Below are positions 2,548 to 13,131 of a stretch of 64,000 nucleotides of DNA, piece after piece. Made by a program: the position numbers and the translations under genes. The notes below the pieces were generated by a model that did no database searches, was not told the DNA's origin, and saw nothing but the letters and a program-made list of their open reading frames with translations. Each line of letters begins with the position of its first letter. Within the stretch, counting starts at the first letter, position 1. This DNA is from an uncultured delta proteobacterium (GTDB taxonomy: Bacteria; Desulfobacterota; Binatia; Binatales; Binataceae). The stretch is from assembly GCA_963808235.1 (NCBI GenBank), contig CAWEEQ010000002.1, forward strand, positions 32,001-96,000, given 5' to 3'.

Positions 2548-3152
2548 CCGGAAGAACCGCCATGACTTGTCGCGACGCGATCGAGGGCGAGGTTAAGCCT
2601 CAGCACATTGACGCCGGCCTCGCCAAAAATCCCCGCCGCACGCGGCCGCGTATTTTCGGCGATCAGCCGCCGCACCTGATCTTCGCTCAGACTACGTGCG
2701 TGGGCAACCCGTGCCACCTGCAATTCGGCGGCGGCCGGACTGATCTCGGGGTCCAGGCCGCTGGCCGAAGTCGTAACTATATCAATCGGGACCTGCGCCG
2801 GGTTGGCTCCGGGATTGCTCTCAAGGAAGTTCTTGAGCCGCAGGCGCACCGCGTCGATGAGCGCTTTGTTGGTGGGCGCGAGATTCGAGCCGCCTGAATT
2901 GGCGGCGTCGTAGCCCTTGTCGCCGGCGGCGGAGGGGCGGCTCTGAAAATAGCGCGGCGACGAAAAATTCTGGCCGATGAGACTCGAGCCGACAACCTTC
3001 CCGTTTTTAACCAGTAAACTTCCGTGAGCACTCTCCGGAAAGATCACCTCGGCGAGGCCGCAGACTGCGAGCGGATAGACCAATCCGGTGATCACGGTGA
3101 GCAAAGCAGTTAGTGCAAGTGCGGAGATGAATGTGCGCACAAACGACCTCAT
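2541..3152 (-). CDS. kdpC: K+-transporting ATPase subunit C
   Basis: [43 protein letters not shown]. Confidence 0.97.
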
Positions 3153-8953: not shown

Positions 8954-9214
8954 TGCGAGTGACTATTCCAAGTCCGCTGCGCTCATATACGCACGGCCGC
9001 GCGGAACTGATTGCGTCGGGCGCGACGTTCGCGGAATTACTCGATCGTCTCGACGCTGATTTTCCCGGGATTCGCTTTCGCATGATCGACGAGCAGGATC
9101 GCATCCGCAGGCATATCAGGCTGTTCGTCAATCGCGAGCCGGTCGTCGATCTGTCGCATAGCACTCAGCGACAATGACGAAGTGCAGATAATCTGCGCGC
9201 TCAGCGGCGGGTAG
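8953..9214 (+). pseudogene. MoaD/ThiS ubiquitin-like protein with a one-base insertion near 9159 (real or assembly error)
   Basis: MRVTIPSPLRSYT...IRLFVN; the expected tail ALSDNDEVQIICALSGG* lies in another frame; span 262 nt = 3n+1. Confidence 0.8.
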
Positions 9215-10004
9215 GTGCCGATGTGGGATCGAAGACATAGCTGCGGCGCCAGTAGACTTCGTCGCTTAATCCTAGCCGCTTATACCATTGGATAGGAGTG
9301 TCGGTTGGGTCGGTGTTGATGATCACGGAGTGGCAGCCGTTATCGTAAGCGTCCGCGATAACCTCGCATAAGAGCTGTTTCGCGATACCTCTCATGCGGA
9401 ATGGTATGCGTGTAGCAAGGTTGAAGATCAAGCGGTCGCTGCCCTCATAGTAGCCGAGGATAGCTGCGGGCTCATTGTCGACTCGCGCGATCAGAAATCG
9501 GCCTATGCTTTCGAATTCGGTTTTGCGGACCGACAGCTCCTCGTCGATGTTCTTGCCGGGTGGTTCGTCTTCAGAATTCGCGAAGCCTTTCAGCTTCACC
9601 TGGACGTAGTCCATCAATGTACCCGCCGTGACAGGCTCGACCGTTACGCCCGGTAGCTGTACTCGATCGGGACGCGGGCCGACATGCGCCAGGTAAGTAT
9701 TCGCCTGGTCGATCGCGCATCCAGCCGCGACTAGTGAAGGCCCACGCGTCCTATCGAGGTTCTTATCATCGAACCCGAGGTGCACCGGGCGATTATCGAA
9801 GTAGCGAATTGCATCGGCCAGAAATTCCGGCACCTCATCGACTGTGAGGGTCTCTATGATGATAAGCCCGGAGTCGGGATGTTCGGCGTGCCGGCGGTAA
9901 AACCCGAAGCGCCTATTCTCGACGTGGTAGCCCCGCTGCGGCCAGGAAGTTCGATACCATGAACGAACTTCCTCGCGCAGACGATCGTGTTCCGGATGAC
10001 GCAT
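9201..10004 (-). CDS. GNAT family N-acetyltransferase
   Basis: LATRIPFRMRGIAKQLL (motif A), WYKRLG. Confidence 0.75.
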   Translation of the reverse strand: MRHPEHDRLREEVRSWYRTSWPQRGYHVENRRFGFYRRHAEHPDSGLIIIETLTVDEVPEFLADAIRYFDNRPVHLGFDDKNLDRTRGPSLVAAGCAIDQANTYLAHVGPRPDRVQLPGVTVEPVTAGTLMDYVQVKLKGFANSEDEPPGKNIDEELSVRKTEFESIGRFLIARVDNEPAAILGYYEGSDRLIFNLATRIPFRMRGIAKQLLCEVIADAYDNGCHSVIINTDPTDTPIQWYKRLGLSDEVYWRRSYVFDPTSAPTRR

Positions 10005-10011
10005 CGCGGTG

Positions 10012-10800
10012 CTACTCCTGCTTGACCAATAATCCGCGGCTGCGTGCCTTCTCGAAGATCCACATGAAGAATCCCACCGCAATGACGAAGTAGATCGCGT
10101 TAAGGCCGGCGCCCCACCAGAAATGGAGTGGCGAAAATCCTTTGCCGGCCAGAATGCTCCGCATCCCTTCGAACGAATGGGCGGTCGGCATCATCCACGC
10201 GACGTCCTGCAGCCATTTCGGCAAAGACGATATCGGATACAGCACGCACGACACCGGCATCAGCAGGCCCGCGAAACTCCACGCCAGCGCCTGGATTTTC
10301 GTCGTGTAGCGAAAGATCATGCCCGTGATCGCGATTCCCAGCGCCAGCGCGAAGAACAACAGGTTCGCCACATACGGGATGAAACTCGGCAGCCATGGAA
10401 AAATGTTGAACGAGTACGCCGCCCACGCGATTATCGACGCCGCGATTAGTCCGACCAGCACCTTCAAGATGCACACCGTGATAAGTCCGGCCATGTATTC
10501 CGCCAGCGTCAACGGCGTCGAGAACAGGTTAATGAGGTTGCGGCACCATAGCTCGTCGATGAAGCCGACCGCCATGTCGCGCTGAAACGAAAAGAAAGTG
10601 CCCCACAAGATGACGGCGCCGAGCAGACAGCTCACGACGTTGGGCTGCAATCGATTACCGTGCGCGAGGTAAATCGTGAAGAAGCCCCACACGATGATGT
10701 CGAGCACCGGCCACCAGACCATGTCGGTTACGCGATCGAAATTGCGCCGCGACTCATATATATGCCGCACGATCACGGCGTTGATGCGATGTAACTTCAT
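10012..10800 (-). CDS. ABC-2 type transporter permease
   Basis: Six hydrophobic segments, YPISSLPKWLQDVAWMMPTAH; overlaps ATPase stop. Confidence 0.9.
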   Translation of the reverse strand: MKLHRINAVIVRHIYESRRNFDRVTDMVWWPVLDIIVWGFFTIYLAHGNRLQPNVVSCLLGAVILWGTFFSFQRDMAVGFIDELWCRNLINLFSTPLTLAEYMAGLITVCILKVLVGLIAASIIAWAAYSFNIFPWLPSFIPYVANLLFFALALGIAITGMIFRYTTKIQALAWSFAGLLMPVSCVLYPISSLPKWLQDVAWMMPTAHSFEGMRSILAGKGFSPLHFWWGAGLNAIYFVIAVGFFMWIFEKARSRGLLVKQE

Positions 10801-11537
10801 GCTGCCTTGCCTTTGACCAGGCGCATGAAGACTTCCTCCAGCGCTGGTTCTTCGCGTTCCTCTTCGAGAATCGCTTGTGTGATTTCGATCGGACTGCCTG
10901 CCGCGATCACTTTTCCGTGATGCAGGAAAATAATCCGCTTACACATCCGCTCGACCTCGTCCATGTTGTGCGAGGTGTAGAGAATCGTCGTCCCCTTGTC
11001 TCGCTGCGCATCGAGCAGCGCGTTCTTCACCTGCCACGCCACTTCCGGATCGAGATACGCCGTCGGCTCGTCGAGCAGCAGCAGTTGCGGATCGTTCATG
11101 AACGCCTTGCACAATCCGACTCGCGTATTCTCACCGGACGAAAGACGTGAGACTGCCTTGTCGCGCAGCTTGGTGATTCCGAACCGCTCGAGCAATTCGT
11201 CGATGCGCTCGCGCGGCCGCGGCAGGTTGTAGATGCGCGCGAAGACCTTCAGGTTCTCGAGCACCGTCAGCCGGAACGGAAACGCGACGTACGGCGAGGT
11301 GAAGTTCATCCGCTCGAGGATTTCCCCGCGATGCGTCGCCATCGACTTCCCGAAGATGCTGATGCGGCCGGAGGTCGGCGTGATCAGCCCGAGGATCATG
11401 TGAATCGTCGTCGTTTTGCCGGCCCCGTTCGGGCCGAGCACTCCGATGATCTCGCCGCGCTCGATCCCGAAGCTCACGTTATCAACGGCGCGAAAGTCGC
11501 CGAACGTTTTCGTCAGATTTTCAATTTCTACCAGCAT
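10797..11537 (-). CDS. ABC transporter ATP-binding protein
   Basis: GPNGAGKT, LSSGE, LLLLDEPT, SHNM. Confidence 0.95.
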   Translation of the reverse strand: MLVEIENLTKTFGDFRAVDNVSFGIERGEIIGVLGPNGAGKTTTIHMILGLITPTSGRISIFGKSMATHRGEILERMNFTSPYVAFPFRLTVLENLKVFARIYNLPRPRERIDELLERFGITKLRDKAVSRLSSGENTRVGLCKAFMNDPQLLLLDEPTAYLDPEVAWQVKNALLDAQRDKGTTILYTSHNMDEVERMCKRIIFLHHGKVIAAGSPIEITQAILEEEREEPALEEVFMRLVKGKAA

Positions 11538-11576
11538 CGAATTTGCCTGCCTTTAACGCTTTCGCGTTTAGATCCC

Positions 11577-11624
11577 AAAAAACAAAACGGCCACGGGGTG
11601 TTTTCACTTTGCACCCGTGGCCGT
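11577..11624 (-). terminator. Intrinsic terminator in the 5' leader of the ABC operon (attenuator)
   Basis: ACGGCCACGGGTG-loop-CACCCCGTGGCCGT then TTTGTTTTTT, ~40 nt before ATG 11537. Confidence 0.85.
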
Positions 11625-11651
11625 CTGAAGCGTTCTTATTATGCTATTGAG

Positions 11652-11723
11652 TCAATGATGACCGAACGTCGCAGACACACCACCACGGGAGTTCTCCCGG
11701 GCCCTTTCGATATTCGGATTCAT
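11652..11723 (-). CDS. Putative attenuator leader peptide MNPNIERARENSRGGVSATFGHH
   Basis: ATG preceded by AGGAAAAGG; overlaps a sequence complementary to the terminator 5' arm. Confidence 0.6.
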   Translation of the reverse strand: MNPNIERARENSRGGVSATFGHH

Positions 11724-11848
11724 TCTGAGTGTGCCTTTTCCTGACGTTCGAACTATAACCTTGTAGCAGCTTGCACGTGTTGTGGCTATAGCCGCGAAAG
11801 GACGGCACTGGTTCAAGACCGACCAGGGCAAAGCTGGACTAGAATTTT

Positions 11849-12319
11849 GTGAAGACCGAGATTTTCTGGAGTTTCTGGTGGTTCACCGTGGCTTTCTGCG
11901 CTTCCAGCATCCTGAATATTCCGATGTATTTGATCGGTTTCCTGCTGCTCGGCAAGGCCGCATTTAAGACCGACGACACGAATAAAATCATGCTAATGGC
12001 AGGCCTGTGTGCGCTACAGTACATAGCAGTATCGGTCGGATTCGCCTTTGCGGAGCGATTTGCCTATCGCCAGAAGAATTCGGGCATGCTGGTGATCACC
12101 AGTATAATAACCTTTCCAGTGGGATTCATCAGCGGCATGTGGAACGCGCTTCTTTTCGACATTCCCAGTATGGAATCGTTAGCGATGTATCGTTGGTTTC
12201 AAAATATAGCGTTCATCTCGGTATTTCTCTTCCTACCCCTAACCGGCGCTGTCGGGCTGGTGTCCGCAGGGCACCTTCGCCGAAAGATCCGGAACTCGAA
12301 TCCGTCCGCGTCAAACTGA
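11849..12319 (+). CDS. Hypothetical four-TM membrane protein, AT-richer than neighbours
   Basis: 156-aa hydrophobic ORF. Confidence 0.6.
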   Translation: MKTEIFWSFWWFTVAFCASSILNIPMYLIGFLLLGKAAFKTDDTNKIMLMAGLCALQYIAVSVGFAFAERFAYRQKNSGMLVITSIITFPVGFISGMWNALLFDIPSMESLAMYRWFQNIAFISVFLFLPLTGAVGLVSAGHLRRKIRNSNPSASN

Positions 12320-12342
12320 ACCAGTGCGTAAAGGAGCTATCG

Positions 12343-13131
12343 ATGGTGGAACCAAAATATGGCGACGTATCGGTAACGCTCGACGGTCACGTGGCGACGC
12401 TGGAGATTCACCGGCCGCCGCATAATTTTTTCGACTTCAATCTTATCCGCGATCTGGCCGACGCATTCGAGGCGCTCGACAAAGAGGCTGAATGCCGCGC
12501 GCTGATGCTCTGTTCGGAGGGCAAGTCATTTTGCGCGGGCGCGAACTTTGCGAATCGGGGCGCGAGCAGCGGCGAGGCTCCGCCGCGCGCCGGCGAAAAT
12601 CCGCTATACGTCGAGGGAGTGCGATTGTTCCGATGCAGCAAGCCCGTGGTTGCCGCAGTGCAGGGAGCCGCAATCGGCGGAGGATTCGGACTGGCTCTGG
12701 TAGCGGACTTCCGGGTGGCGACGGCGGAGGCGCGGTTCGCGGCGAACTTCGTCAAGCTGGGAATCCATCCGGGGTTCGGACTCACGTACACGTTGCCGCG
12801 ATTGATCGGCGCGCAGAAGGCCGCGCTGATGTTCTACACGGGTCGGCGCATCAGCGGTGAAGAAGCGCTCGCATGGGGACTGTGCGATTTCGTCGCGGAG
12901 CCGGATAATCTGCGCAAGGTCGCGAATGCGCTCGCGATGGAAATAGCCGAAGGTGCGCCACTCGCACTATTGTCGACTCGAGCAACGATGCGTCAAGGGC
13001 TAGCCGATGCGGTCAAAGCGCAGACCGATCACGAGTTCAAGGAACAGTCGCGGCTGTTCCTCACCGAGGATCATCGCGAAGGTGTGAAGGCGGTCAGCGA
13101 GCGGAGGCCGGGCAAATTCGTCGGCAGGTGA
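12343..13131 (+). CDS. Enoyl-CoA hydratase/isomerase family protein
   Basis: AAGGAG RBS; FCAGAN, KPVVAAVQGAAIGGG, LGIHPGFG. Confidence 0.92.
   Translation: MVEPKYGDVSVTLDGHVATLEIHRPPHNFFDFNLIRDLADAFEALDKEAECRALMLCSEGKSFCAGANFANRGASSGEAPPRAGENPLYVEGVRLFRCSKPVVAAVQGAAIGGGFGLALVADFRVATAEARFAANFVKLGIHPGFGLTYTLPRLIGAQKAALMFYTGRRISGEEALAWGLCDFVAEPDNLRKVANALAMEIAEGAPLALLSTRATMRQGLADAVKAQTDHEFKEQSRLFLTEDHREGVKAVSERRPGKFVGR

What the first reader, a model, noticed from the sequence alone, without database searches (positions are those of the whole stretch)
11577..11740. Leader-peptide attenuator with an R-A-R motif controlling an ABC exporter
Seen on the minus strand: RBS, a 23-aa leader MNPNIERARENSRGGVSATFGHH, then a strong terminator 40 nt before the ATPase. 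Leader codons 12-17 (CCCGTGG...GTCTG, 11689-11672) are complementary to the terminator 5' arm (CAGAC..CCACGGG, 11627-11614) and form a mutually exclusive antiterminator. A ribosome reaching the stop would mask it (termination); one stalled early would leave it free. Established: (R/K)-x-(R/K) is the macrolide arrest motif (ErmDL has RLR), and here RAR sits at codons 7-9. Inference: an antibiotic- or ligand-sensing riboregulator of an efflux pump.
Basis: partly seen in the sequence, partly recalled or inferred. Interest (0 to 1): 0.7.

Follow-up and report, generated by a model that had tools for sequence, protein, structure and literature searches.

The report
Leader-peptide attenuator before ABC-2 exporter
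A short upstream coding sequence and a switchable terminator hairpin sit in front of a two-gene export pump in an uncultured soil bacterium, most likely turning the pump on when ribosomes stall, as known antibiotic-inducible resistance genes do.

Summary
On the minus strand lie a 23-codon ORF (11723-11652, MNPNIERARENSRGGVSATFGHH), a strong intrinsic terminator (11624-11577) 39 nt before an ABC ATPase, and a leader segment (CCCGUGG, 11689-11683) complementary to the terminator's 5' arm.

The element is conserved upstream of the orthologous ATPase plus ABC-2 permease pair in 42 of 51 related loci examined, mostly Candidatus Binatus/Binataceae MAGs. Three further variants were found later.

- The 7-bp antiterminator core pairs in 43 of 43 aligned leaders, with one compensatory G-C to A-U change.
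- An ATG ORF of 17-24 codons is kept in all 46 leaders, although three different frames read through the conserved RNA segment.
- [RK]-x-[RK] starts at codons 5-7 in 44 of 46 leaders, with R/K exchanges and a free middle residue.
- All three frames are closed by stops just behind the ORF in 42 of 43.

Best reading: a ribosome-stalling transcription attenuator of the ermK/mef(E)/bmrB kind. It is new for this phylum and for an ABC-2 exporter.

Not shown: the inducer, the pump's substrate, the transcription start. Folding models do not single out the RAR stall site. A +x+ motif alone is common (42% of random small ORFs).

The parts
11760..11788 (-). Putative promoter: -35-like TAGCCA (11788-11783), 17-nt spacer, TG (11768-11767), -10-like TACAAG (11765-11760)
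   Evidence: CTGCTA is at least 90% conserved and its A is invariant in alignment A1. Clade-2 loci read TTGCAT-17-TGcTACTTT at the same place. The consensus scan found no promoter here. Inferred; the transcription start is unknown.
11734..11742 (-). Shine-Dalgarno-like AGGAAAAGG of the leader ORF
   Evidence: AGGAA is nearly invariant. The spacing to the ATG is 10 nt here and longer in clade 2.
11652..11723 (-). Leader ORF, 23 codons plus stop (MNPNIERARENSRGGVSATFGHH*)
   Evidence: An ATG ORF of 17-24 codons is present in all 46 leaders examined.
11697..11705 (-). R7-A8-R9 codons (AGG GCC CGG), the proposed stall site (A8 in the P site, R9 in the A site)
   Evidence: codon 7 is AGG 31, AAA 2, AAG 1. 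Codon 8 is A 19, T 9, N 5, V 1. Codon 9 is CGG 34 of 34. The stall register is taken from ErmDL (PMC8298421, passages read).
11682..11702 (-). Local hairpin GCCCGGGA / UCCCG-U-GGU that sequesters the antiterminator strand (inner part of the anti-antiterminator)
   Evidence: -11.9 kcal/mol. The 3-bp core is in the RNAalifold consensus, with one pair reading AU 17, GU 16, CG 9, GC 1.
11729..11750 (-). 5'-UTR strands CGAACGUC (11750-11743) and GGCACAC (11735-11729), which pair with GACGUUCG (11670-11663) and GUGUGUC (11680-11674): outer anti-antiterminator
   Evidence: 83% of cells paired; -34.7 kcal/mol, z = -3.0.
11664..11689 (-). Antiterminator 5' strands: CCCGUGG (11689-11683), GUCUG (11676-11672), CGUUC (11668-11664)
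   Evidence: the core pairs in 43 of 43, with GC 34 and AU 9. The outer helices pair in 78% and 81% of cells.: -29.9 kcal/mol.
11636..11654 (-). Three-frame stop cluster UGA (11654-11652), UAG (11646-11644), UAA UAA (11641-11636)
   Evidence: all three frames are closed between the antiterminator strand and the terminator in 42 of 43 leaders, against 23% of shuffles.
11614..11635 (-). Antiterminator 3' strands: GAACG (11635-11631), CAGAC (11627-11623), CCACGGG (11620-11614, also the terminator 5' arm)
11577..11624 (-). Intrinsic terminator: 13-bp G+C-rich stem plus UUUUGUUUUUU
   Evidence: 95.9% of cells paired, 3 pairs with double changes. (-24.4 kcal/mol, z = -5.4).
11546..11568 (-). Small hairpin AACGC-GAAA-GCGUU and the ATPase Shine-Dalgarno AAAGGCAGG
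   Evidence: The stem is conserved in clade 1. Its role is unknown.
10797..11537 (-). ABC ATPase (246 aa), DrrA/ABC-A-like
   Evidence: PF00005, 2.8e-31. (TIGR01188 drrA, 210.9 bits, below the cut-off of 312.45)..
10012..10800 (-). ABC-2 permease (262 aa), overlapping the ATPase stop
   Evidence: PF01061, 4.8e-12; it is always found behind the ATPase in related loci.

Best explanation
This is a ribosome-dependent transcription attenuator. Transcription starts about 30 nt before a 23-codon leader ORF.

Without a stalled ribosome, the leader RNA folds on itself. The 5' UTR and codons 8-10 pair with codons 12-20, the terminator hairpin forms, and RNA polymerase stops 39 nt before the ABC ATPase gene. 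A ribosome that runs to the stop codon covers the antiterminator strand, with the same result.

A ribosome arrested with the middle codon of the conserved basic-x-basic motif (R7-A8-R9) in its P site holds the 5' arm of the local hairpin. This frees CCCGUGG, which begins 13 nt downstream of the P site. CCCGUGG and its flanks then pair with the terminator's 5' arm, the terminator cannot form, and the two-gene ABC-2 exporter is transcribed.

Shown: the parts, their conservation, and the pairing pattern. Inferred: translation of the ORF, the stall site, the transcription start, and the signal. The most likely signal is a compound bound in the ribosome's exit tunnel (macrolide- or ketolide-like), because such drugs arrest ribosomes at [RK]-x-[RK]. 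The pump would then export that compound or relieve its effects.
For: Conservation and linkage
- 42 of the 51 loci L001-L051 examined carry the element directly upstream of the orthologous ATPase and permease.
- In a family sample, 8 of 41 genomes have a model hit at E <= 1e-4. Seven of these lie 770-850 nt upstream of the permease on the same strand.
- The four other genomes with a permease at 65% identity or more (G304, G311, G190, G326) have variant leaders. G326's is cut by a contig end.

Pairing
- The antiterminator core pairs in 43 of 43 leaders, with G-C (34) and A-U (9). The same terminator column goes C-G (34) to U-G (9).
- The local hairpin pair reads AU 17, GU 16, CG 9, GC 1.
- Energies rank anti-antiterminator -34.7, antiterminator -29.9, terminator -24.4 kcal/mol.

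Signs of translation
- ATG is kept in all leaders.
- In clade 1, codons 3, 4 and 6 vary synonymously: CCG 28/CCA 4, AAT 20/AAC 13, GAA 26/GAG 5.
- The RNA-conserved segment is read in three different frames (L008 and L027; L020 and L023), yet the ORF stays 17-24 codons long.
- All three frames are closed within about 13 nt in 42 of 43 leaders, against 23% of shuffles.

The motif
- [RK]x[RK] starts at codons 5-7 in 44 of 46 leaders.
- Eight codon combinations occur (AGG/AAA/AAG/AGA - x - CGG/AGA/AAA), and x is A, T, N, V or P.

Geometry
- The RNA downstream of the ribosome was folded alone, before the terminator 3' arm exists. The antiterminator core then has probability of about 0.8 or more for P-site codons 5-8 in 33 of the 34 clade-1 leaders (L020 reaches it from codon 6). 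It falls to 0.0-0.2 at codon 9 in 29 of the 34; L021 has 0.4 and L008, L023 and L027 have 0.7-0.9 there. All 34 are at about 0 from codon 10.
- In G190 the permissive window ends at codon 8, and in G311 at codon 13. In G311 RAR lies at codons 12-14.

Other
- ErmDL stalls with L7 in the P site and R8 in the A site, and only Lys can replace Arg (PMC8298421, passages read).
- No Rfam family matches.
- The promoter scan found no promoter-like site anywhere in 10700-12300, so none between the terminator and the ATPase.
Against: - If base pairs across the stalled ribosome are allowed, the antiterminator reaches probability 0.5 or more in only 19 of 42 leaders with the P site on the x codon. It does so in 16 of 43 with the P site on the last sense codon (one search is similar with a wider mask). 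Thermodynamics alone therefore does not select the RAR stall.
- In clade 2 the classical model allows any P site from codon 1 to 8-9.
- A +x+ motif is common by chance: 42% anywhere and 11% at codons 5-7.
- L036 has none. G311 has none at codons 5-9, though it has KARAR at 10-14.
- The antiterminator covariation is one event in one clade. In G190 the matching position is mispaired in both structures.
- All carriers are close kin. Apart from the window's own genome, none of the 150 other phylum-sample genomes has more than a weak hit driven by the terminator hairpin. In the class sample the strong hits lie in 3 of 7 genomes of the own genus.
- The Shine-Dalgarno spacing is long, and clade 2 has no clear SD within 10 nt of the ATG.
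- No consensus promoter was found, and the transcription start is unknown.
- The pump's substrate is unknown.
- The leader shows no sequence likeness to MTxSMRLR leaders.
- The + codons are often the rare AGG/AGA (3% and 2% of Arg codons), which also fits a hungry-codon pause.
Confidence: 0.55

Rival explanations
1. This is a hungry-codon or translation-capacity attenuator. The ribosome pauses at the rare AGG/AGA (Arg) or Lys codons when the matching charged tRNA is scarce, or when translation is generally slowed. No drug is involved, and the pump answers a physiological state.
For: AGG is 3% and AGA 2% of Arg codons in 23 long ORFs of the window. Yet AGG is codon 7 in 31 of 34 clade-1 leaders, and AGA is the second basic codon in 8 of 9 clade-2 leaders. 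A pause with codon 7 in the A site (P site on codon 6) also lies in the permissive window. Rare codons in bmrB affect its attenuation decision; I saw only the section heading in the outline of PMC4191407.
Against: Lys AAA (34% of Lys codons) replaces the first Arg in L008, L045 and most of clade 2. L034 reads K-A-K with no Arg codon at all. There is no run of one regulatory codon, as classical amino-acid attenuators have. The controlled genes are an exporter, not a biosynthetic or tRNA-charging function.
Confidence: 0.15
2. This is a riboswitch or a protein- or sRNA-controlled terminator/antiterminator switch. The small ORF is incidental, and a ligand or factor stabilises one of the folds.
For: The most conserved stretches are RNA strands (CCCRUGG, GUGUG, CAUUGAC), read in different frames in different loci. 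The whole ORF lies inside a long hairpin.
Against: No Rfam family matches; the only hit has E = 7.5. The conserved structures are plain mutually exclusive helices without an evident ligand pocket. ATG is kept in all 46 leaders. Third-position variation in codons 3, 4 and 6 is synonymous. The ORF is kept through frame changes, and all three frames are closed in 42 of 43 leaders. Basic residues are kept through 8 codon combinations.
Confidence: 0.1
3. The productive arrest is at the end of the ORF, not at RAR. A ribosome held at the conserved His-UGA-C stop (slow or inhibited termination) unzips the outer anti-antiterminator helix and lets CCCGUGG pair with the terminator arm.
For: With pairs across the ribosome allowed, the antiterminator core reaches 0.5 or more in 16 of 43 leaders with the P site on the last sense codon. 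A second permissive window appears at codons 19-23. CAU-UGA-C is kept in clade 1, clade 2, L008 and L099.
Against: In the classical model the core is 0 at the stop in all 43 leaders. The stop region also holds the strand of a conserved helix, which explains its conservation. L001, L020, L023, L027 and L045 end differently. This reading does not explain conservation of the basic-x-basic motif.
Confidence: 0.07
4. The small ORF with its own terminator is an independent small gene, and the ABC operon has its own promoter.
For: The ORF is conserved and is followed by a strong terminator.
Against: Only 39 nt separate the U-run from the ATPase ATG. That stretch is variable except for a small hairpin and the SD, and no promoter-like site was found there. 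The C-terminal half of the peptide is not conserved as protein, since three frames are used. The element is found only with this transporter: 7 of 8 hits in the family sample, the 8th being a relic. This reading does not explain the conserved antiterminator complementarity.
Confidence: 0.05

Closest known systems
erm(K)/erm(D) leader (ErmKL/ErmDL, MTHSMRLRFPTLNQ), macrolide-induced transcription attenuation
   Same: A short leader ORF holds an Arg-x-Arg motif near codons 6-8. The arrest has x in the P site and the second Arg in the A site, and only Lys is tolerated in place of Arg (PMC8298421, passages read). erm(K) is controlled by transcription attenuation (stated in PMC4335068, passages read). 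Here the motif is at codons 7-9 and R/K interchange is seen in nature.
   Different: There is no sequence likeness beyond the motif (MNPNIERAR against MTHSMRLR). The controlled gene is an ABC-2 exporter, not an rRNA methyltransferase. The host is an uncultured Binatus-type bacterium rather than a Bacillus. Drug dependence is not shown here.
mef(E)/mel leader Mef(E)L (MTASMRLR) of Streptococcus pneumoniae
   Same: A leader peptide with RLR, an intrinsic terminator and an alternative fold control an efflux operon at the level of transcription (PMC4335068, abstract and passages read).
   Different: That leader is 8 codons long in a 327-nt 5' region with four pairs of repeats. It controls an MFS pump and an ABC-F protein. 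Here the leader is 23 codons in a leader region of about 215 nt and controls an ABC-2 ATPase and permease pair.
bmrB-bmrCD of Bacillus subtilis
   Same: Ribosome-mediated transcription attenuation controls an ABC transporter. It has alternative stem-loops and requires translation of the leader (PMC4191407, abstract read).
   Different: [quoted passage not shown] By my recollection, BmrCD are half-transporters of another ABC type and BmrB is longer. Here the terminator lies 27 nt or more behind the stop codon.
Classical amino-acid attenuators (trpL, hisL, leuL, pheL)
   Same: The logic of four strands with a ribosome-position-dependent choice between antiterminator and terminator is the same.
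   Different: There is no run of regulatory codons and there are no biosynthetic genes downstream. None of the Rfam leader families matched.

Membership tests
Ribosome-dependent (leader-peptide) transcription attenuator | Small ORF with a start codon and ribosome-binding site in the 5' leader of the regulated operon | tested here: met
   An ATG ORF of 17-24 codons is present in 46 of 46 leaders. The SD-like AGGAA is conserved, but its spacing is long (10 nt in the window) and clade 2 lacks a close SD.
Ribosome-dependent (leader-peptide) transcription attenuator | Intrinsic terminator between the leader ORF and the structural gene | tested here: met
   13-bp stem plus U-run, -24.4 kcal/mol, z = -5.4. 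95.9% of cells are paired across 43 sequences.
Ribosome-dependent (leader-peptide) transcription attenuator | Antiterminator mutually exclusive with the terminator, overlapping or abutting the leader ORF, supported by covariation | tested here: met
   The 7-bp core pairs in 43 of 43, with one compensatory change (GC 34, AU 9). This is one evolutionary event only.
Ribosome-dependent (leader-peptide) transcription attenuator | Read-through depends on translation of the leader and on ribosome position | not testable with these tools
   Only models are available. The classical model fits. The model that allows pairs across the ribosome is ambiguous.
Macrolide/ketolide-responsive +X+ (RLR-class) leader peptides | [RK]-x-[RK] motif placed so that arrest there frees the anti-attenuator | tested here: met
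   The first basic residue is at codons 5-7 in 44 of 46 leaders. The x codon lies inside the permissive window in the classical model.
Macrolide/ketolide-responsive +X+ (RLR-class) leader peptides | Sequence relation to the MTxSM[RK]L[RK] leaders | tested here: not met
   Compared by eye with Table 3 of PMC4335068. Nothing is shared beyond M and the basic-x-basic spacing.
Macrolide/ketolide-responsive +X+ (RLR-class) leader peptides | The downstream gene is a known macrolide resistance determinant (erm, mef, msr, ABC-F) | tested here: not met
   The downstream genes are an ABC ATPase (PF00005) and an ABC-2 permease (PF01061). The best NCBIfam match, drrA, is below its cut-off.
Macrolide/ketolide-responsive +X+ (RLR-class) leader peptides | Drug-dependent ribosome arrest and induction | not testable with these tools
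   This needs toeprinting or a reporter assay.
Known riboswitch or RNA leader families (Rfam 15) | Match to a curated covariance model | tested here: not met
   Window 11300-12200 was searched on both strands at E <= 10. The only hit was a 14-nt match to RAGATH-25 at E = 7.5.
DrrAB-type antibiotic exporter | The ATPase and permease reach the curated scores of TIGR01188 and TIGR01247 | tested here: not met
   210.9 against 312.45 bits, and 20.4 against 223.05 bits.

The most novel reading that the evidence does not exclude
The leader is a natural sensor of exit-tunnel-binding compounds in an uncultured, Gram-negative-type soil lineage (Binatus/Binataceae). The small ABC-2 ATPase and permease pair that it controls is a so far unrecognised exporter class for macrolide- or ketolide-like, or other ribosome-targeting, natural products. 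This would be a piece of the environmental resistome with its own inducible switch, unrelated in sequence to the Firmicutes RLR leaders.
Probability: 0.3. Interest if true: 0.65.

Novelty: new member of a known kind. Interest (0 to 1): 0.5.

Why it matters
Leader-peptide attenuators that sense ribosome-targeting drugs are known almost only from cultured Firmicutes and Actinobacteria, and from erm, mef/msr, ABC-F, cat and bmrCD genes. This one comes from an uncultured soil and peat lineage and controls a different kind of pump. It carries a compact set of parts that is easy to test: a leader of about 215 nt in which a single R-to-A change should abolish induction.

If the inducer is a macrolide-like compound, three things would follow.
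- A new exporter family for such compounds would be identified.
- The basic-x-basic arrest rule would be shown to be used by nature well outside the Bacillus and Streptococcus leaders.
- The leader would serve as a ready-made reporter for tunnel-binding natural products.

If the inducer is something else, the element is still a clean example of how attenuator strands drift (three reading frames, at least four structural variants) while the switch is kept.

Tried and rejected
- **Rfam search** of 11300-12200: nothing usable.
- **Consensus promoter and terminator scan**: 0 sites of either kind. The terminator was missed, I think because of its long loop. No promoter was identified, so the promoter I propose rests on conservation only.
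- **Metatranscriptome check.** Eight runs held about 4-5% of the sampled words. Four were laid (X1, X2, X3, X6). X1 gave nothing. The others cover only the conserved ABC motifs around 11050-11090 and 11410-11455, at 90-95% likeness, so they come from other organisms. Nothing lay on 11492-12000. This gives no information on expression, transcription start or termination.
- **Covariance model R1**. In a phylum sample of 151 genomes and a class sample of 151, the only strong hits are in the window's own genus. The weak full-length hits (G116, G120) and short hits (G001, G011, G172) are driven by the GGCCACGG...CCGUGGCC hairpin alone, and I rejected them as members. G190's weak hit turned out to be a real variant.
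- **Second protein-guided scan** with a clade-2 ATPase. It returned mostly the same loci and one new leader (L099). Homologues in MAGs labelled Saccharibacteria, Patescibacteria, Desulfarculia, Verrucomicrobiae and Acidobacteriaceae have no leader.
- **G300's copy**. It is not followed by the transporter. A luciferase-like monooxygenase follows, and tblastn finds no ATPase. I did not use it as evidence for or against the motif. A short N-terminal ATPase-like stretch there is seen by eye only.
- **The 59-codon extension** of the leader frame to TTG 11831. Upstream extensions are not conserved among loci, so I rejected it.
- **The 156-aa ORF on the plus strand** (11849-12319). It has no family hit, no match in related loci, and the stretch is single-copy in the genome. 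It is not part of the element.
- **PDB sequence search for the permease**: no match.

Full report
**What is there.** Read on the minus strand, the 311 nt between the ABC ATPase start (ATG 11537) and the next upstream feature hold the following, in order.
- A conserved promoter-like stretch: TAGCCA, 17 nt, then TGcTACAAG (11788-11760).
- A purine-rich SD-like run (11742-11734).
- A 23-codon ORF (11723-11652, MNPNIERARENSRGGVSATFGHH).
- A cluster of stop codons in all three frames (11654-11636).
- A 13-bp G+C-rich hairpin with a U-run (11624-11577).
- A small hairpin, and the ATPase Shine-Dalgarno.

The ATPase (10797-11537) is a PF00005 protein closest to DrrA/ABC-A types. It scores below the curated drrA cut-off. 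The permease (10012-10800) is an ABC-2 membrane protein with no solved relative by sequence.

**Where it occurs.** The ATPase query retrieved 77 loci.
- I examined L001-L051. L052-L077, at 34% identity or less and mostly Helicobacter, were not examined.
- 42 of the 51 carry the same leader. Nearly all are MAGs labelled Candidatus Binatus, Binataceae or 'uncultured delta proteobacterium'.
- The nine without it are L029, L040, L041, L043, L044 and L048-L051.
- The conserved unit is leader, ATPase and permease. The GNAT gene behind the permease in the window is present in only 7 related loci.
- A covariance model built from 43 leaders finds one copy in the window's genome.
- In a phylum sample of 151 genomes it finds no other convincing copy.
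- In a class sample of 151 genomes it finds strong hits only in the window's own genus (3 of 7 genomes).
- In a family sample it finds 8 of 41 genomes at E <= 1e-4.
- In that family sample, seven of the eight hits lie 770-850 nt upstream of the orthologous permease on the same strand. The eighth (G300) is a copy no longer followed by the transporter.
- The four other genomes with a permease at 65% identity or more have divergent leaders that the model missed or scored weakly. These are G304 (= L099), G311 and G190; G326's is cut by a contig end.
- A paralogous pump at 59-63% identity, also present in the window's genome, has no leader in the three cases examined.

**RNA structures.** Three structures were counted on the 43-sequence alignment A1.
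- *Terminator*: 13 pairs, 95.9% of cells paired, three pairs with changes on both sides.
- *Antiterminator*: the core CCCRUGG:CCAYGGG pairs in 43 of 43, with G-C in 34 and A-U in 9. The same 5'-arm column pairs in the terminator as C-G (34) or U-G (9). The leader and the 5' arm therefore changed together, while the 3' arm could stay. This is one evolutionary event (clade 2), so it is supportive, not proof. The two outer antiterminator helices hold in clade 1 only (78% and 81% of cells paired). Clade 2, L099 and G311 use other flanking complementarity.
- *Anti-antiterminator*: it pairs the 5' UTR and codons 8-10 with codons 12-20. Overall 83% of cells are paired. The core of the local hairpin is in the RNAalifold consensus, and one of its pairs reads AU 17, GU 16, CG 9, GC 1.

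In the window the three folds have -34.7, -29.9 and -24.4 kcal/mol. Each is below its shuffles, with z = -3.0, -2.8 and -5.4. This is the order an attenuator needs.

**Is the ORF translated?** Several lines of evidence point that way.
- ATG is kept in all leaders.
- In clade 1, codons 3, 4 and 6 vary only or mainly synonymously (CCG/CCA, AAT/AAC, GAA/GAG). Codon 8 varies freely (A, T, N, V). Codon 7 varies only between Arg and Lys.
- The RNA-conserved segment CCCRUGG is read in frame 1 in most loci, frame 0 in L008 and L027, and frame 2 in L020 and L023. Even so, an ORF of 17-24 codons remains.
- All three frames are closed within about 13 nt, between the antiterminator strand and the terminator, in 42 of 43 leaders. 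The figure for shuffles of the same segments is 23%. This keeps ribosomes off the downstream strands, whatever the frame.
- The C-terminal half of the peptide is thus not selected as protein. The N-terminal half is.

**The basic-x-basic motif.**
- On its own, RAR means little. 42% of 142 random small ORFs in the window carry such a motif, and 11% carry it at codons 5-7.
- Its weight lies in conservation. It starts at codons 5-7 in 42 of 43 aligned leaders, and also in L099 (KTR) and G190 (RNK), so 44 of 46 in all.
- It is encoded by eight codon combinations.
- The misses are L036 (MLSKRIG...) and G311, which has KARAR at codons 10-14 instead.
- In the published case, ErmDL stalls with Leu7 in the P site and Arg8 in the A site, and only Lys can replace either Arg (PMC8298421, passages read).
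- erm(K) and mef(E)/mel use RLR leaders with transcription attenuation (PMC4335068, abstract and passages read).

**Geometry.**
- With A8 in the P site, the ribosome holds GCCCGGGA (codons 8-10). This is the 5' arm of the local hairpin that sequesters CCCGUGG. CCCGUGG begins 13 nt downstream of the first P-site base.
- In a model that folds only the RNA downstream of the ribosome, before the terminator's 3' arm exists, the antiterminator core is near 1.0 for P-site codons 5-8 in 33 of 34 clade-1 leaders. L020 reaches it from codon 6.
- At codon 9 it is 0.0-0.2 in 29 of the 34. L021 has 0.4, and L008, L023 and L027 have 0.7-0.9. From codon 10 on it is about 0 in all.
- The x codon (codon 8) is therefore the last, or nearly the last, permissive position.
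- In clade 2 any position up to codon 8-9 is permissive.
- In G190 the window ends at codon 8. In G311 it ends at codon 13, where its RAR has A13 in the P site.

**Results against this reading.**
- If base pairs between the 5' UTR and the RNA behind the ribosome are allowed, the core reaches 0.5 or more in only 19 of 42 leaders at the x codon.
- In that model a second permissive window appears at the end of the ORF, in 16 of 43 leaders at the last sense codon (with a wider mask gave even less).
- Whether such pairs can form around a 70S ribosome cannot be settled here.
- The basic codons are often the rare AGG and AGA (3% and 2% of Arg codons). A hungry-codon pause is therefore a real rival, although Lys AAA replaces Arg in several leaders and L034 has no Arg codon in the motif.

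**What could not be shown.** The transcription start, termination in vivo, dependence on translation, the inducer and the pump's substrate all remain open. Metatranscriptome contigs gave no cover of the leader. Two searches of the paper library (Binatota with 'leader peptide'; Binatus with attenuator, riboswitch or ABC-2) found no description of this element. Subscription journals are not covered by that library.

**Verdict.** This is a real, conserved leader-peptide transcription attenuator upstream of an ABC-2 exporter. Its kind is well known (erm(K), mef(E)/mel, bmrBCD), but this one is unrelated to those in sequence, and it is new for this lineage and for this type of pump. Drug sensing through the basic-x-basic motif is the best-supported reading, but it is unproven.

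Noticed in passing
window 11546-11568 (-): A small hairpin, AACGC-GAAA-GCGUU, lies directly before the ATPase Shine-Dalgarno (AAAGGCAGG). The stem is conserved in clade 1 and the loop varies. It may be a stabiliser or a processing site of the read-through transcript.
   Followed up: no
window 11636-11654 (-): Stop codons in all three frames (UGA, UAG, UAA UAA) lie within 19 nt behind the leader ORF. They are kept in 42 of 43 leaders with different sequences in the two clades, against 23% of shuffles.
   Followed up: yes
G000:C1:193551-194336 and L140; L142, L143: The same genome holds a second ABC-2 pair (permease 61% identical) without leader or terminator. Its upstream end carries a different conserved stretch (..GTACTGTGTCGCG before the ATG), shared with L040, L044, L142 and L143.
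   Followed up: partly
L136 (G300:C1:2353800-2357300), leader at about 2831-2997 (-): This is a leader-plus-terminator copy that is not followed by the transporter. A luciferase-like monooxygenase follows it. The ORF that resembles the L099 leader reads MATNSVTARGG..., with the first basic residue lost. Another ORF with a better SD reads MSPIWQLIRLRR...
   Followed up: partly
window 11810-12345 (+): About 540 bp lie between the enoyl-CoA hydratase gene and the leader promoter. Most related loci lack this stretch; there the hydratase gene abuts the promoter. It is single-copy in the genome. It holds a 156-aa ORF (11849-12319) with a hydrophobic start, no family hit, and no match in 51 related loci.
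   Followed up: partly
window 9201-10082 (-): A GNAT acetyltransferase ORF overlaps the permease end. It has a weak likeness to AAC(3)-I (E = 2.6e-5, far below the cut-off). It is present behind the pump in only 7 of 51 related loci, so it is not a fixed part of the operon.
   Followed up: partly
L138 (G311), leader MNPFDIHTAKARARALCPPPAH: This variant leader has three consecutive prolines (codons 18-20) and KARAR at codons 10-14. Its terminator arm reads CCGCGGG (A to G) and is matched by a changed 3' arm, while the leader U now forms a wobble pair.
   Followed up: partly
L029, L043/L096, L122, L124: ATPase and permease pairs 59-71% identical to the window's occur in MAGs labelled Acidobacteriaceae, Verrucomicrobiae, Saccharibacteria and Patescibacteria. 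None has the leader. This suggests either horizontal spread of the pump or mis-binned contigs.
   Followed up: no
L028, L032, L046: The ATPase reading frame is broken (tblastn matches split or shortened, locus one base longer). This is either an error of the long-read assemblies or a pseudogene.
   Followed up: no
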